A DNA stretch of 64,000 bases from Escherichia coli (lineage in GTDB: Bacteria > Pseudomonadota > Gammaproteobacteria > Enterobacterales > Enterobacteriaceae), in NCBI RefSeq assembly GCF_029227855.1, contig NZ_CP074356.1. The stretch is one strand, 5' to 3'. This document shows, piece after piece, positions 4,210-22,321 of the stretch. The position numbers were made by a program, and so were the translations under genes. The stretch's first letter is position 1. The number at the start of each line of letters is the position of its first letter. The notes below the pieces were generated by a model. The model ran no database searches and had not been told where the DNA came from. It saw only the letters and a program-made list of their open reading frames with translations.

Positions 4210-5241
4210 ATGTCTGCATTTACCCCGGCAAGTGAAGTCTTGCTGCGTCACAGTGATGATTTCGAACAAAGCCGTATTCTGTTTGCCGGAGACTTACAGG
4301 ATGACCTGCCCGCGCGTTTAGATACCGCGGCCAGCCGTGCTCATACCCAGCAATTCCACCACTGGCAGGTATTAAGCCGCCAGATGGGGGATAACGCCCG
4401 TTTCAGTCTGGTCGCCACGGCGGATGACGTCACAGATTGCGATACGCTGATTTACTACTGGCCGAAGAACAAACCGGAAGCCCAGTTCCAGTTGATGAAT
4501 TTACTTTCTCTGCTGCCGGTGGGCACGGATATTTTTGTCGTTGGCGAGAACCGCAGCGGCGTGCGCAGCGCCGAGCAGATGCTGGCAGATTATGCGCCGT
4601 TGAATAAAGTGGACAGCGCTCGTCGCTGTGGCCTCTATTTTGGTCGTCTGGAAAAACAGCCAGTATTTGATGCCGATAAATTCTGGGGCGAATACAGCGT
4701 CGATGGCCTGACGGTCAAAACGCTGCCGGGCGTGTTTAGCCGCGACGGTCTGGATGTCGGTAGCCAGTTACTGCTCTCGACGTTAACTCCGCACACGAAA
4801 GGTAAAGTGCTGGATGTCGGCTGTGGCGCGGGCGTGCTTTCTGTTGCCTTTGCGCGCCATTCGCCGAAAATTCGTCTCACTCTGTGCGATGTCTCTGCGC
4901 CAGCGGTAGAAGCCAGCCGCGCAACACTTGCGGCCAACGGTGTTGAAGGTGAAGTCTTTGCCAGTAACGTCTTTTCCGAGGTGAAAGGTCGTTTTGATAT
5001 GATCATCTCCAACCCGCCGTTCCACGATGGGATGCAAACCAGCCTCGATGCGGCGCAAATGCTGATTCGCGGCGCGGTGCGTCATCTTAATAGCGGCGGC
5101 GAGCTGCGAATTGTAGCGAACGCCTTCCTGCCTTATCCGGACGTGCTGGATGAGACATTTGGCTTCCACGAAGTGATCGCGCAAACCGGGCGCTTCAAGG
5201 TGTATCGCGCCATTATGACCCGCCAGGCGAAGAAAGGTTAA
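4210..5241 (+). CDS. rsmC: 16S rRNA (guanine1207-N2)-methyltransferase
   Basis: 343 aa, SAM-binding [11 protein letters not shown] and NPPFH motifs; divergent from holD. Confidence 0.9.
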
Positions 5242-5371
5242 GTATCTGATATCTGTCGCCGCATACCGTGTCGGATGCGGCGTACACGACTTCTCTGACC
5301 GACAAACGAATTATCCACAATCCGCTGATGGACATTTTTCCAGCAATTACACCTCCGGCGATAATTAACTA

Positions 5372-5399
5372 TTGACGAAAAGCTGAAAACCACTAGAAT
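5372..5399 (+). promoter_or_regulatory. Sigma70 promoter of the tRNA-Leu operon (TTGACG -35, 16-nt spacer, TAGAAT -10, GC-rich discriminator)
   Basis: ttgacgaaaagctgaaaaccactagaat followed by gcgcctccg about 40 nt upstream of the first tRNA; AT-rich tract upstream. Confidence 0.55.
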
Positions 5400-5440
5400 G
5401 CGCCTCCGTGGTAGCAATTCTTTTTAAGAATTGATGGTAT

Positions 5441-5527
5441 GCGAAGGTGGCGGAATTGGTAGACGCGCTAGCTTCAGGTGTTAGTGTCCTTACGGACGTG
5501 GGGGTTCAAGTCCCCCCCCTCGCACCA
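5441..5527 (+). tRNA. leuV: tRNA-Leu (anticodon CAG), copy 1 of 3
   Basis: 87-nt GCGAAGGTGGCGGAATTGGTAGACGCG...CCTCGCACCA with CTTCAGGT anticodon loop; gene name assigned by operon position only. Confidence 0.9.
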
Positions 5528-5555
5528 AAAACCACGTTGATATTGCTCGCACTGG

Positions 5556-5642
5556 GCGAAGGTGGCGGAATTGGTAGACGCGCTAGCTTCAGGTGTTAGT
5601 GTTCTTACGGACGTGGGGGTTCAAGTCCCCCCCCTCGCACCA
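5556..5642 (+). tRNA. leuP: tRNA-Leu (anticodon CAG), copy 2 of 3, with one C-to-T difference in the variable arm
   Basis: Same 87-nt sequence except GTTCTTACGGAC instead of GTCCTTACGGAC. Confidence 0.9.
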
Positions 5643-5676
5643 AACGAGGCGATATCAAAAAAAGTAAGATGACTGT

Positions 5677-5763
5677 GCGAAGGTGGCGGAATTGGTAGAC
5701 GCGCTAGCTTCAGGTGTTAGTGTCCTTACGGACGTGGGGGTTCAAGTCCCCCCCCTCGCACCA
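5677..5763 (+). tRNA. leuQ: tRNA-Leu (anticodon CAG), copy 3 of 3
   Basis: Identical to copy 1. Confidence 0.9.
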
Positions 5764-5801
5764 ATTATCTTTACTTCCTTTCTTGTTTCTTCCCTGTTTT
5801 A

Positions 5802-6038
5802 TCATCCCTGATTCAAATTCATTAGCATCAGCATGATGCCAGCACTAAGCGCCAGGCACGATGGCAGCAAAACGTAATGCCGCAACTGTTTGTGATACAG
5901 CATCACCGGCGTCAATATTAATCCCATCAGAATGACAATCCGCCACTGATCCGGCGATAAATCCGCATACATCAGCCCTGCAATCAGCAATCCCGGCAGC
6001 AACACTCCCCAGCCACTGCCCAGCGTACGTTGCAACAT
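5802..6038 (-). CDS. yjjZ: Small inner-membrane protein YjjZ
   Basis: ORF 5802..6149; the 78-aa form MLQRTLGSGWGVLLPGLLIAGL... starts at an internal Met; divergent from fhuF. Confidence 0.5.
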   Translation of the reverse strand: MLQRTLGSGWGVLLPGLLIAGLMYADLSPDQWRIVILMGLILTPVMLYHKQLRHYVLLPSCLALSAGIMLMLMNLNQG

Positions 6039-6049
6039 GGTTTCATCTC

Positions 6050-6178
6050 TTTCATTGATAATGATAACTAATATCATATGATAATTTTTATCATTTGCAA
6101 GCCAGAGAAATCCCTTGCTATCGGGTAAACCTATCGCTAGGATTAGCAATCATTATCATTTAGATTACTATCACGATT
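6050..6178. promoter_or_regulatory. yjjZ-fhuF divergent promoter region with Fur-box-like GATAAT/ATCATT repeats
   Basis: tgataatgataactaatatcatatgataatttttatcatttgc and gcaatcattatcatttagattactatcac resemble the Fur consensus GATAATGATAATCATTATC. Confidence 0.4.
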
Positions 6179-6967
6179 ATGGCCTATCGTTCCGCACCGC
6201 TCTATGAAGATGTTATCTGGCGAACGCATCTCCAGCCGCAGGATGCTGGGCTTGCACAAGCCGTACGGGCGACGATCGCCGAACATCGTGAACATTTGCT
6301 CGAGTTTATCCGCCTGGATGAACCCGCTCCGCTTAACGCCATGACGCTGGCGCAATGGTCATCACCGAATACGCTAAGTTCTCTACTGGCGGTCTATTCC
6401 GATCATATCTACCGCAACCAACCCTTGATGATCCGCGAGAACAAACCGCTGATCTCACTATGGGCGCAATGGTATATCGGCCTGATGGTGCCACCATTAA
6501 TGTTGGCGCTGCTGACGCAGGAAAAAGCATTAGATGTGTCGCCGGAACATTTCCACGTTGAGTTTCACGAAACCGGACGCGCCGCCTGTTTCTGGGTCGA
6601 TGTGTGTGAAGATAAAAACGCAACACTACATTCGCCGCAGCAGCGAATGGAAACGTTAATCAGTCAGGCGCTTGTTCCGGTAGTGCAGGCATTAGAAGCA
6701 ACGGGAGAGATCAACGGCAAACTTATCTGGAGCAATACCGGTTATTTGATCAACTGGTATCTGACTGAGATGAAACAGCTGCTCGGCGAGGCGACGGTTG
6801 AATCGCTGCGCCATGCCCTCTTTTTTGAGAAAATGCTCACGAACGGTGAAGATAATCCACTCTGGCGTACCGTGGTACTGCGCGACGGCCTGCTGGTGCG
6901 CCGCACTTGCTGTCAGCGTTATCGCTTACCGGATGTGCAGCAATGTGGCGATTGTACGCTGAAATGA
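6179..6967 (+). CDS. fhuF: Ferric-siderophore reductase FhuF (2Fe-2S protein)
   Basis: 262 aa; C-terminal C-C-x10-C-x2-C motif (CCQRYRLPDVQQCGDC). Confidence 0.9.
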   Translation: MAYRSAPLYEDVIWRTHLQPQDAGLAQAVRATIAEHREHLLEFIRLDEPAPLNAMTLAQWSSPNTLSSLLAVYSDHIYRNQPLMIRENKPLISLWAQWYIGLMVPPLMLALLTQEKALDVSPEHFHVEFHETGRAACFWVDVCEDKNATLHSPQQRMETLISQALVPVVQALEATGEINGKLIWSNTGYLINWYLTEMKQLLGEATVESLRHALFFEKMLTNGEDNPLWRTVVLRDGLLVRRTCCQRYRLPDVQQCGDCTLK

Positions 6968-20313: not shown

Positions 20314-20760
20314 TTATTCATTATCGCCCGGGATGTCTTCTTGTCGGGAATTACCCAGAGCAATAAATTCCTCTAACAGATGGGTTAACTGTTGCATTTT
20401 CTCGGCAGTAAACTGAGCTTCAATCTGCCGATAGGCCTCTTCAATCTGTGTCTGAGCGCGGTTATACAGCGCCTGCCCCTCTTTGGTCAGCGAGATATAG
20501 AGCTTCCGCTGATCATTGATCGGCTTTAATCGCAACACTAAACCGTCGCGTTCCATCCGCGTAAGGATCCCGGTCAGGCTTGGGCGCAAAATGCAGGCGC
20601 GATACGCCAGATCGTGAAAATCCATTGATGGGCTTTCCGCCAGAATACGCACGATGCGCCACTGTTGCTCAGTCAAATTATGCCGTTTAACGATTGGGCG
20701 AAAATAACTCATCGCCGCTTCTCGCGCCTGGAGCAACGCAATGGTTAGAGAGTCGTGCAT
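20314..20760 (-). CDS. hpaR: MarR-family repressor of the hpa meta-cleavage operon
   Basis: ORF 20314..20841; the 148-aa form starts MHDSLTIALLQAREAAMSYF; divergent from hpaG. Confidence 0.85.
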   Translation of the reverse strand: MHDSLTIALLQAREAAMSYFRPIVKRHNLTEQQWRIVRILAESPSMDFHDLAYRACILRPSLTGILTRMERDGLVLRLKPINDQRKLYISLTKEGQALYNRAQTQIEEAYRQIEAQFTAEKMQQLTHLLEEFIALGNSRQEDIPGDNE

Positions 20761-21031
20761 TATCTTTCCCCTGAAAAATTCAAAATCATTAATATAGAAA
20801 CAGTTAATCATCACGTTACCGGGACTGCGCTGCCCCTGCAATTCTTCATTTTATCAAAATTGAGCATGTTTTGTTAACTTGCTGATATTTAATATTTTAT
20901 TATCTTTAAATGTAAATAGTTTGTTAATTAGATCACATTTACATCACTTACTTTTGCCAAACTACGCAATCGGGAATAAAAGTAATCATTAACATATTAA
21001 TGATTAAGATGATCGAATCCGAGGAGTGGTA

Positions 21032-22321
21032 ATGAAAGGCACTATCTTCGCCGTAGCGTTGAACCATCGCAGCCAGCTTGATGCATGGCAGGAAGCGTTC
21101 CAGCAATCCCCCTACAAAACCCCGCCTAAAACTGCGGTCTGGTTTATTAAACCGCGCAATACGGTGATTGGTTGCGGTGAACCGATTCCCTTTCCACAGG
21201 GTGAAAAAGTACTGAGCGGTGCGACTGTTGCGCTGATTGTGGGGAAAACGGCGACGAAAGTACGTGAAGAAGATGCGGCAGAGTACATCGCCGGATATGC
21301 GCTGGCTAACGACGTCAGCCTGCCGGAAGAGAGCTTTTACCGCCCGGCAATCAAAGCAAAATGTCGTGATGGATTCTGCCCCATTGGCGAAACCGTGGCT
21401 CCCAGCAATGTCGATAATCTGACTATCTATACCGAGATCAACGGGCGTCCTGCCGATCATTGGAACACCGCCGATTTACAACGTAACGCCGCGCAGTTGC
21501 TGAGCGCTCTGAGCGAATTTGCCACGCTGAATCCAGGCGATGCCATTCTGCTCGGCACGCCACAGGCGCGCGTGGAAATACAGCCAGGCGATCGCGTGCG
21601 TGTTCTCGCAGAAGGTTTCCCGCCACTGGAAAATCCGGTAGTGGACGAACGTGAAGTGACCACGCGCAAGAGCTTCCCAACGCAGCCACACCCGCACGGC
21701 ACGCTGTTTGCCCTCGGCCTGAACTACGCCGACCACGCCAGCGAACTGGAATTTAAGCCACCGGAAGAACCGCTGGTGTTCCTGAAAGCGCCGAATACCC
21801 TCACTGGCGATAACCAGACCTCCGTGCGCCCGAACAATATTGAATACATGCACTACGAAGCGGAGCTGGTGGTAGTTATTGGCAAGCAGGCGCGTAACGT
21901 CAGCGAAGCCGATGCCATGGATTATGTCGCGGGCTACACCGTGTGTAACGACTACGCCATTCGCGACTATCTGGAAAACTACTACCGCCCTAACCTGCGG
22001 GTAAAAAGCCGCGACGGACTGACGCCGATGCTTTCAACCATCGTGCCGAAAGAGGCGATCCCGGACCCGCATAATCTGACCCTTCGCACCTTCGTCAACG
22101 GCGAGTTACGCCAGCAAGGCACCACCGCCGATCTGATCTTCAGCGTGCCCTTCCTGATCGCCTACTTAAGCGAATTTATGACCCTGAATCCGGGCGACAT
22201 GATCGCCACCGGCACACCAAAAGGCTTATCTGACGTGGTGCCTGGCGATGAAGTAGTGGTGGAAGTAGAAGGCGTGGGCCGCCTGGTGAACCGAATTGTG
22301 AGTGAGGAAACAGCGAAATGA
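21032..22321 (+). CDS. hpaG: Bifunctional 5-oxopent-3-ene-1,2,5-tricarboxylate decarboxylase / 2-hydroxyhepta-2,4-diene-1,7-dioate isomerase
   Basis: About 429 aa with two tandem FAH-fold halves; first gene of the hpaGEDFHI order. Confidence 0.85.
   Translation: MKGTIFAVALNHRSQLDAWQEAFQQSPYKTPPKTAVWFIKPRNTVIGCGEPIPFPQGEKVLSGATVALIVGKTATKVREEDAAEYIAGYALANDVSLPEESFYRPAIKAKCRDGFCPIGETVAPSNVDNLTIYTEINGRPADHWNTADLQRNAAQLLSALSEFATLNPGDAILLGTPQARVEIQPGDRVRVLAEGFPPLENPVVDEREVTTRKSFPTQPHPHGTLFALGLNYADHASELEFKPPEEPLVFLKAPNTLTGDNQTSVRPNNIEYMHYEAELVVVIGKQARNVSEADAMDYVAGYTVCNDYAIRDYLENYYRPNLRVKSRDGLTPMLSTIVPKEAIPDPHNLTLRTFVNGELRQQGTTADLIFSVPFLIAYLSEFMTLNPGDMIATGTPKGLSDVVPGDEVVVEVEGVGRLVNRIVSEETAK

What the first reader, a model, noticed from the sequence alone, without database searches (positions are those of the whole stretch)
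6050..6178. Fur-box-like repeats in the yjjZ-fhuF divergent promoter
GATAAT/ATCATT hexamer arrays occur on both sides of the short intergenic region, consistent with iron (Fur) repression of fhuF and possibly yjjZ. This fits known biology and is unremarkable apart from being readable directly in the sequence.
Basis: partly seen in the sequence, partly recalled or inferred. Interest (0 to 1): 0.15.

Follow-up and report, generated by a model that had tools for sequence, protein, structure and literature searches.

The report
Known Fur operators between yjjZ and fhuF
The repeats are the already-footprinted binding sites of the iron-sensing repressor Fur in the E. coli yjjZ-fhuF spacer, one cluster on each gene's promoter, so the finding is correct but ordinary.

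Summary
The window is E. coli, with yjjZ at 5802-6038 (-) and fhuF at 6179-6967 (+). A Fur weight matrix built here from 15 MG1655 Fur sites, none from fhuF, puts its four best hits in the whole 64 kb inside the 140-bp spacer. The left cluster is 6054-6095 (16.9, 20.3 and 21.8 bits). The right cluster is 6142-6166 (18.8 and 8.5 bits). None of 20,000 dinucleotide shuffles of the spacer gives four sites of at least 15 bits. The spacer has no indels against K-12, so the published DNase I footprints (Chen et al. 2007) map to 6050-6102 (high affinity) and 6132-6185 (low affinity). The left cluster covers the yjjZ promoter (published TSS maps to 6065). The right cluster covers the fhuF -10 and TSS (6148/6149). 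Both genes are published members of the core Fur regulon. One modest addition comes from 52 Enterobacteriaceae loci. Each cluster stays with its own gene, and in most genera a GGDEF gene separates them by about 1.4 kb. Escherichia lost that gene, which left the two Fur-controlled promoters back to back. Novelty: already known. Interest: low.

The parts
5802..6038 (-). yjjZ coding sequence (78 aa, DUF1435, function unknown)
   Evidence: ORF; Pfam PF07256 at E=8e-36; annotated yjjZ in RefSeq E. coli genomes.
6050..6102 (.). Published high-affinity Fur DNase I footprint 'fhuF1', mapped from K-12
   Evidence: NC_000913.2 coordinates 4603763-4603815 (PMC2189734). Conversion: window position = 4609865 minus the K-12 coordinate. 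The conversion is valid because the spacer has no indels against MG1655.
6054..6095 (.). Left Fur-box cluster: three overlapping 19-bp sites (6054-6072, 6060-6078, 6077-6095). This is the yjjZ operator.
   Evidence: PWM scores of 16.9, 20.3 and 21.8 bits, close to the published 16.1, 20.8 and 22.3 bits. Two tandem 17-nt palindromic units lie within a 46-bp near-palindrome at 6055-6100. A site is kept at a fixed distance from the yjjZ ATG in 49 of 49 loci that have yjjZ.
6065..6100 (-). yjjZ sigma-70 promoter: -35 TTGCAA at 6100..6095, 16-nt spacer, -10 TATGAT at 6078..6073, TSS at 6065
   Evidence: Promoter scan. Published TSS at NC_000913.3 4,605,777, which maps to 6065, with delta-fur derepression (PMC10301672). 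TTGCAA-16-TATGAT was also predicted from RpoD genomic SELEX (PMC3946193).
6098..6113 (.). Poorly conserved junction between the yjjZ-side and fhuF-side homology blocks; inferred scar of the GGDEF-gene deletion
   Evidence: Per-column identity to 44-47 non-Escherichia species collapses here; alignments.
6115..6149 (+). fhuF sigma-70 promoter: -35 TTGCTA at 6115-6120, 17-nt spacer, -10 TAGGAT at 6138-6143, TSS at 6148/6149
   Evidence: Published fhuF transcription starts at 4603717/4603716 (PMC2189734) map to 6148/6149. The hexamers were read from the sequence. CTTGC and TAGGAT are at least 90% conserved across genera.
6120..6156 (.). Candidate OxyR-like site over the fhuF core promoter (weak evidence)
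   Evidence: 13 of 20 specified positions of ATAGnTnnnAnCTAT-n7-ATAGnTnnnAnCTAT. Ten positions in the 64-kb window score 13 or more, and this is one of them. OxyR repression of fhuF is reported in the literature (PMC8115020). The footprint paper could not be read.
6142..6166 (.). Right Fur-box cluster: two overlapping sites (6142-6160, 6148-6166). This is the fhuF operator.
   Evidence: PWM scores of 18.8 and 8.5 bits; published 14.6 and 9.3 bits. One perfect half-site (ATTATCA) and one poor half-site (TAGCAAT). A site of at least 17.4 bits lies 25-37 nt upstream of the fhuF ATG in 52 of 52 loci.
6132..6185 (.). Published low-affinity Fur DNase I footprint 'fhuF2', mapped from K-12
   Evidence: NC_000913.2 coordinates 4603680-4603733 (PMC2189734); mapping as above.
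6179..6967 (+). fhuF coding sequence (262 aa, siderophore-iron reductase with a 2Fe-2S centre)
   Evidence: ORF; NCBIfam equivalog NF007932 at 477 bits against a cutoff of 300; Pfam FhuF and FhuF_C.

Best explanation
The 140-bp yjjZ-fhuF spacer holds two back-to-back sigma-70 promoters, each with its own Fur operator. When iron is sufficient, holo-Fur dimers bind overlapping 19-bp sites offset by 6 or 17 bp. The left cluster (6054-6095, three strong sites) spans about -30 to +11 of the yjjZ promoter (TSS 6065, minus strand). It covers the spacer, the -10 hexamer and the start site, so RNA polymerase is excluded and yjjZ is tightly repressed. The right cluster (6142-6166, one good and one weak site) spans about -7 to +18 of the fhuF promoter (TSS 6148/6149). 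It blocks the downstream edge of the -10 hexamer and the start site, but with lower affinity, so fhuF is derepressed at milder iron limitation. Iron starvation releases Fur and both genes are transcribed divergently. Shown in published work: Fur protection of both regions, both transcription start sites, and Fur- or iron-dependent expression of both genes. Shown here: site positions, scores, statistics and conservation. Inferred: promoter occlusion as the mechanism, and the assignment of one cluster to one gene.
For: The locus is E. coli yjjZ-fhuF. An independent PWM puts its four best window-wide hits in the spacer, and 0 of 20,000 spacer shuffles match this. The spacer has no indels against K-12, so the published footprints map to 6050-6102 and 6132-6185 and the fhuF TSS to 6148/6149. 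The yjjZ TSS maps to 6065, and the promoter is active only in delta-fur or in vitro. Both yjjZ and fhuF are in the core Fur pan-regulon. yjjZ is also Fur-regulated in UPEC and is iron-repressed in Salmonella. An fhuF::lacZ fusion is the reporter of the Fur titration assay. Phylogenetic footprinting supports the assignment: the fhuF-proximal site is present in 52 of 52 Enterobacteriaceae loci, and the yjjZ-proximal cluster is present in 49 of 49 loci with yjjZ at a fixed distance from its ATG, even where the two genes are 1.4 kb apart. The Fur boxes and the -10 and -35 elements are the most conserved non-coding columns. The spacer is present in 5424 of 5426 complete E. coli genomes at 90% identity or better.
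Against: No binding or expression experiment was done on this strain's allele, which differs from K-12 at 5 spacer positions. One of these (6069) lies inside the left cluster, at a nearly non-informative centre position, and one (6140) lies in the fhuF -10. My PWM scores the fhuF-proximal site (18.8 bits) nearly as high as the left sites, although the footprint shows it is weaker; affinity therefore also depends on cooperativity between overlapping sites, which the PWM does not capture. The published authors labelled both footprints as fhuF promoter sites, so a role for the left cluster at fhuF is not excluded.
Confidence: 0.95

Rival explanations
1. The two clusters act together on fhuF. In this reading the high-affinity left cluster is an auxiliary upstream operator. 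It would act either through Fur polymerisation or looping to the proximal site 65 bp away, or by repressing a second, upstream fhuF promoter (P2) that reads rightward out of the left cluster. This is not exclusive with the best explanation for yjjZ.
For: The published work names both footprints fhuF1 and fhuF2. A plus-strand promoter-like match, TTGATA-16-TATGAT at 6055-6082, lies inside the left cluster. Shimada et al. predicted TTGATA-19-GATAAT as the fhuF promoter. The left cluster is a 46-bp near-palindrome with promoter-like hexamers on both strands.
Against: The only mapped fhuF starts are 6148/6149, downstream of the right-hand core promoter. In 39 loci from other genera the left cluster lies 1.4 kb from fhuF and stays with yjjZ, while fhuF keeps its own proximal site, so fhuF control does not need the left cluster. 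The plus-strand -35 TTGATA is not conserved even within Escherichia: CTGATA in the GTDB E. coli representative and CGATAA in E. albertii. The use of fhuF as a sensitive titration reporter fits control by a weak operator (inference).
Confidence: 0.25
2. The repeats are chance similarity in AT-rich promoter DNA (-10-like TATAAT/GATAAT words, UP-element-like tracts) and are not specific repressor sites.
For: The spacer is 69% A+T. Other AT-rich spacers in the window give moderate PWM hits: 15.2 bits at 59486 and about 13 bits at 20778 and 20978.
Against: 0 of 20,000 composition-matched shuffles reproduce the cluster. 170 other AT-rich 140-bp windows score 15.2 bits at most. The boxes are conserved base for base across genera while the flanking spacer is not. 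Fur footprints are published on the same DNA.
Confidence: 0.01
3. The sites are mainly used by another metal or redox regulator (for example Zur, MntR or OxyR) rather than Fur.
For: In Salmonella the PyjjZ reporter was less fully restored by iron add-back, and the authors suggest possible responsiveness to other metals. OxyR is reported to repress fhuF, and an OxyR-like match lies at 6120-6156.
Against: The arrays match the Fur matrix at 17-22 bits. Fur deletion derepresses yjjZ. Fur ChIP-exo places both genes in the core regulon. The OxyR-like match scores only 13 of 20 and occupies mostly different bases, so it is an additional input at fhuF rather than an alternative.
Confidence: 0.03

Closest known systems
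The K-12 fhuF promoter Fur sites fhuF1 and fhuF2 (Chen, Lewis, ..., Storz, Schneider 2007, NAR 35:6762) and the EcoCyc/RegulonDB yjjZ promoter
   Same: It is the same locus. The spacer length (140 bp) is identical, and 135 of 140 spacer positions are identical (5 substitutions). All five predicted sites, both footprints and both TSSs map without indels.
   Different: This strain has five substitutions. T instead of C at 6069 falls at the centre of one left site. G instead of T at 6140 makes the fhuF -10 TAGGAT rather than K-12's TATGAT. TAGGAT appears to be the majority E. coli and cross-genus form: the exact K-12 44-mer is found in only 416 of 4976 genomes.
Divergent Fur-controlled promoter regions of the enterobactin cluster (fepA-fes, fepB-entC, fepD-entS)
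   Same: Short spacers with divergent sigma-70 promoters, repressed by arrays of overlapping GATAAT-type Fur sites placed over the -10 and TSS. The footprinted coordinates are listed, and the sites were used in my PWM.
   Different: Here the two genes do not share a pathway (yjjZ has no known function). Each promoter also has its own spatially separate operator, with centres 65-88 bp apart. The arrangement is a lineage-specific fusion, not an ancestral divergent unit.
Extended Fur operators built from hexamer arrays, as in the aerobactin iucA promoter (Escolar, Perez-Martin, de Lorenzo model)
   Same: Three or more contiguous NAT(A/T)AT hexamers in either orientation, overlapping sites at 6-bp offsets, and footprints longer than one dimer site (about 53 bp).
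   Different: The arrays are shorter than the iucA operator. No evidence was gathered here for polymerisation beyond the mapped footprints.

Membership tests
E. coli Fur operator (Fur box array) | Match to the 19-bp palindromic consensus, or at least three contiguous GATAAT-like hexamers, at a score typical of proven sites | tested here: met
   Sites of 16.9-21.8 bits fall within the 12.7-28.1 bit range of the 15 training sites. The consensus match is 16/19 at 6057-6075.
E. coli Fur operator (Fur box array) | More sites than chance allows in DNA of the same composition | tested here: met
   0 of 20,000 dinucleotide shuffles of the spacer give 4 sites of at least 15 bits. Whole-window shuffles give a mean of 0.28 such sites, against 5 observed.
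E. coli Fur operator (Fur box array) | Position overlapping core promoter elements or the TSS, as repression by occlusion requires | tested here: met
   The left cluster spans -30 to +11 of the yjjZ TSS at 6065. The right cluster spans -7 to +18 of the fhuF TSS at 6148/6149. The TSSs are taken from the literature; the positions were computed here.
E. coli Fur operator (Fur box array) | Direct binding by Fur protein | not testable with these tools
   Published for the K-12 allele by gel shift and DNase I footprinting at 50 nM Fur (PMC2189734) and by ChIP-exo in nine strains (PMC10164565). This strain's allele was not itself assayed.
E. coli Fur operator (Fur box array) | Fur- and iron-dependent expression of the adjacent genes | not testable with these tools
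   Published: yjjZ is derepressed in delta-fur; both genes are in the core regulon and upregulated on fur deletion; fhuF::lacZ is the Fur titration reporter; PyjjZ is repressed by iron in Salmonella.
E. coli Fur operator (Fur box array) | Conservation of the sites in orthologous promoters | tested here: met
   The fhuF-proximal site is present in 52 of 52 loci and the yjjZ-proximal cluster in 49 of 49. The box columns are 80-99% identical across 44-47 non-Escherichia species, while neighbouring spacer columns are not.
OxyR binding site (four ATAG-type elements at 10-11 bp spacing) | Match to ATAGnTnnnAnCTAT-n7-ATAGnTnnnAnCTAT over the regulated promoter | tested here: inconclusive
   The best match, 6120-6156, scores 13 of 20. 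Ten positions in the window score 13 or more, and 13 is far from a full match. The primary OxyR footprint paper is not held.
Shared-operator divergent Fur promoters (fepA-fes type) | One Fur-protected region controlling both divergent promoters | tested here: not met
   There are two separate protected regions (6050-6102 and 6132-6185), each over one promoter. In most genera they lie 1.4 kb apart.

The most novel reading that the evidence does not exclude
The compact divergent Fur-controlled spacer is a fusion product specific to the Escherichia lineage. Deletion of a roughly 354-aa GGDEF (diguanylate cyclase) gene and its flanks joined two ancestrally separate Fur-regulated promoter regions to within 14 bp of each other's -35 hexamers. 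On this reading the high-affinity footprint traditionally called fhuF1 is really the yjjZ operator and plays little or no part in fhuF control. Its plus-strand promoter-like half may be a relic of the lost gene's Fur-controlled promoter. Leclercia and Silvania appear to have made a similar deletion independently.
Probability: 0.6. Interest if true: 0.22.

Novelty: already known. Interest (0 to 1): 0.1.

Why it matters
It matters little beyond confirmation. fhuF is a classic Fur target and the reporter of the Fur titration assay, and yjjZ is a recognised core Fur-regulon gene of unknown function. The check shows that a tool-less reader can recover a footprinted operator to within a few bases. 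Two small points may be useful. First, the strong cluster historically attached to fhuF belongs evolutionarily to yjjZ. That helps explain why fhuF behaves as a weakly repressed, easily titrated promoter even though a high-affinity Fur cluster lies within 100 bp of it. Second, K-12 carries an atypical -10 allele (TATGAT) at fhuF, so K-12 reporter data may overstate fhuF promoter strength relative to most natural E. coli.

Tried and rejected
- **Supplement of Chen et al. 2007.** It is not held. I therefore rebuilt a Fur PWM from MG1655 coordinates in their Tables 3 and 4, checking each site centre against gene-relative positions.
- **Zheng et al. 2001 (OxyR sites, PMC95352).** It is not held, so the OxyR site could only be approximated by a consensus count. 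That result is inconclusive.
- **First PWM script.** It failed on a file-naming assumption and was rerun.
- **Rfam.** A permissive-E-value scan of 5300-6400 found only the three tRNA-Leu genes. There is no sRNA or riboswitch in the spacer.
- **Link between the intervening GGDEF gene and Salmonella STM4551.** A literature search for STM4551 together with fhuF, yjjZ or Fur found no paper containing STM4551. NCBIfam gives only a domain-level GGDEF match with no equivalog. The STM4551 identity therefore remains an unverified recollection and is not claimed.
- **Remnant of the GGDEF gene in the window.** tblastn gave nothing better than E = 0.42.
- **Chance AT-richness.** Rejected by the shuffles and by cross-genus conservation.
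- **Other PWM hits (59486, 20778, 20978).** They lie in AT-rich spacers upstream of nanC and between hpaR and hpaG, and score 15.2 bits or less. I treated them as probable chance matches.

Full report
**Locus.** The window is an E. coli chromosome segment. It is not K-12; it is 100% identical over 1.4 kb to several clinical isolates. The local order is rsmC (4210-5241, +), three tRNA-Leu(CAG) genes (5441-5763, +), yjjZ (5802-6038, -; 78 aa, DUF1435), a 140-bp spacer (6039-6178), fhuF (6179-6967, +; 262 aa), then bglJ and yjjQ.

**Observation.** The spacer holds seven exact GATAAT, ATTATC, ATCATT or AATGAT hexamers, where about 0.23 would be expected from their window-wide frequency. The only match in 64 kb to the classical 19-bp Fur consensus with up to 3 mismatches is 6057-6075.

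I therefore built an independent matrix from 15 experimentally supported MG1655 sites, excluding fhuF. The sites are yoeA, gpmA, ryhB, sodA, fecI, entC, nohA, fadD, oppA, cirA, fepA-fes, fepB, fur, tonB and fecA.

The four best hits in the whole window are all in the spacer: 6077-6095 (21.8 bits), 6060-6078 (20.3), 6142-6160 (18.8) and 6054-6072 (16.9). A fifth site lies at 6148-6166 (8.5 bits). The next best hit anywhere scores 15.2 bits.

Dinucleotide-preserving shuffles of the 69% A+T spacer never give four sites of at least 15 bits (0 of 20,000), and give two such sites in 0.09% of trials. There are arrays on both sides, and the left one is stronger.

**What is already published.** Chen et al. 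2007 (PMC2189734) predicted two Fur clusters in the K-12 fhuF promoter region, with scores of 16.1, 20.8 and 22.3 bits and of 14.6 and 9.3 bits. They confirmed both by DNase I footprinting: a high-affinity region fhuF1 at 4603763-4603815 and a low-affinity region fhuF2 at 4603680-4603733. They place the fhuF transcription starts at 4603717/4603716.

The window's spacer aligns to MG1655 without indels and with 5 substitutions. These features therefore map to window 6050-6102, 6132-6185 and 6148/6149. My five sites coincide in position and nearly in score with theirs.

The yjjZ TSS is published at NC_000913.3 4,605,777, which maps to window 6065. It has a TTGCAA-(16)-TATGAT promoter that is silent in wild type and active in delta-fur and in vitro (PMC10301672). 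The same hexamers appear and in Shimada et al. 2014.

yjjZ and fhuF are both listed in the core Fur regulon of nine E. coli strains. yjjZ is also in the direct Fur regulon of UPEC CFT073 and is iron-repressed in Salmonella. fhuF::lacZ is the reporter of the Fur titration assay.

**Anatomy and mechanism.**
- **yjjZ promoter (minus strand).** The -35 is at 6100..6095, the -10 at 6078..6073 and the TSS at 6065.
- **Left cluster.** It spans 6054-6095, which is -30 to +11 of the yjjZ TSS. It consists of two tandem 17-nt palindromic units inside a 46-bp near-palindrome.
- **fhuF promoter (plus strand).** The -35 TTGCTA is at 6115-6120, the -10 TAGGAT at 6138-6143 and the TSS at 6148/6149.
- **Right cluster.** It spans 6142-6166, which is about -7 to +18 of the fhuF TSS. 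It has one perfect half-site (ATTATCA) and one poor half-site (TAGCAAT).

The most likely mechanism is classical promoter occlusion by holo-Fur at each promoter separately. Repression would be tight at yjjZ and weaker at fhuF. This step is an inference from position.

An OxyR-consensus-like match (13 of 20) lies at 6120-6156 over the fhuF core promoter. That agrees with reported OxyR repression of fhuF, but the evidence here is weak.

**Related sequences.** A scan of one genome per species returned 52 Enterobacteriaceae fhuF loci.
- Every one has a Fur site of at least 17.4 bits centred 25-37 nt upstream of the fhuF ATG.
- Every one of the 49 loci in which yjjZ was found has Fur sites 24-48 nt upstream of the yjjZ ATG.
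- In 39 of these, yjjZ and fhuF are about 1.4 kb apart. A roughly 354-aa membrane GGDEF gene lies between them, on the fhuF strand and divergent from yjjZ. It appears truncated or absent as an open reading frame in two of these loci.
- The two genes are adjacent only in the five Escherichia species (140 bp) and in five Leclercia or Silvania loci (155-166 bp, with different junction sequence).

Alignments show that the E. coli spacer is a yjjZ-side block (up to about 6100) joined to a fhuF-side block (from about 6106). Conservation collapses at 6098-6113. No remnant of the GGDEF gene is detectable in the window.

By parsimony, Escherichia lost the gene. The deletion left the two -35 hexamers 14 bp apart. 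This supports assigning the left cluster to yjjZ and the right cluster to fhuF, and it argues against a need for the left cluster in fhuF control. The Fur boxes, the -35 CTTGC and the -10 TAGGAT are the most conserved non-coding columns.

**Within E. coli.** The spacer is present in 5424 of 5426 complete genomes at 90% identity or better. In a sample of eight alleles the right box is invariant, and the left boxes vary only at weakly informative positions.

**Verdict.** The finding is real, correctly interpreted and already known: the sites have been footprinted, the TSSs mapped and the genes assigned to the Fur regulon. Only the evolutionary reading, a fusion of two Fur operators by loss of a GGDEF gene, goes slightly beyond what I found in the literature searched, and its importance is minor. 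Interest is low.

Noticed in passing
window 6138-6143 (position 6140): The fhuF -10 hexamer is TAGGAT in this strain and TATGAT in K-12 MG1655. TAGGAT is also the form in most other genera. The exact K-12 44-mer occurs in only 416 of 4976 matching E. coli genomes, and most of the rest differ by one base. K-12 therefore seems to carry a minority allele closer to the -10 consensus.
   Followed up: partly
window 6056-6068; L068 (NZ_CM128581 strain 700462), H37 (NZ_CP042903): About 10 of 5426 E. coli genomes carry a 6-bp duplication (an extra TGATAA) in the left Fur array, giving CATTGATAATGATAATGATAAC. This is a natural gain of one GATAAT hexamer unit. Its effect on Fur binding or on yjjZ 5'UTR spacing is unknown.
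   Followed up: partly
L017-L064 (e.g. L020:816-1880), corresponding to the junction at window ~6098-6113: In 39 of 49 Enterobacteriaceae loci a roughly 354-aa GGDEF-domain gene lies between yjjZ and fhuF (in two of these loci a full-length ORF is lacking). Escherichia species and Leclercia/Silvania lack it, apparently through independent deletions. From memory it may correspond to Salmonella STM4551, but this could not be verified.
   Followed up: partly
window 6055-6100: The left Fur cluster is a 46-bp near-palindrome with sigma-70-like hexamers on both strands: plus strand TTGATA-16-TATGAT at 6055-6082 and minus strand TTGCAA-16-TATGAT at 6100-6073. The plus-strand half could be a relic of the lost GGDEF gene's promoter or an unmapped upstream fhuF promoter.
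   Followed up: no
window 58588-59276 and 59486-59504: IS1-like insA/insB ORFs lie immediately next to the long AT-rich region upstream of nanC (nanC, nanM and nanS at 60692-63588). A 15.2-bit Fur-PWM hit (AATAATAACTCTCATCATT) lies in that region. It is probably a chance match.
   Followed up: partly
window 20400-21400: This is the hpaR-hpaG intergenic region of the 4-hydroxyphenylacetate degradation cluster, found in 2072 of 5426 E. coli genomes. It holds two weak Fur-PWM hits of about 13 bits.
   Followed up: no
window 5441-5763: Three tandem tRNA-Leu(CAG) genes, corresponding to leuQ, leuP and leuV in MG1655, lie directly downstream of yjjZ.
   Followed up: no
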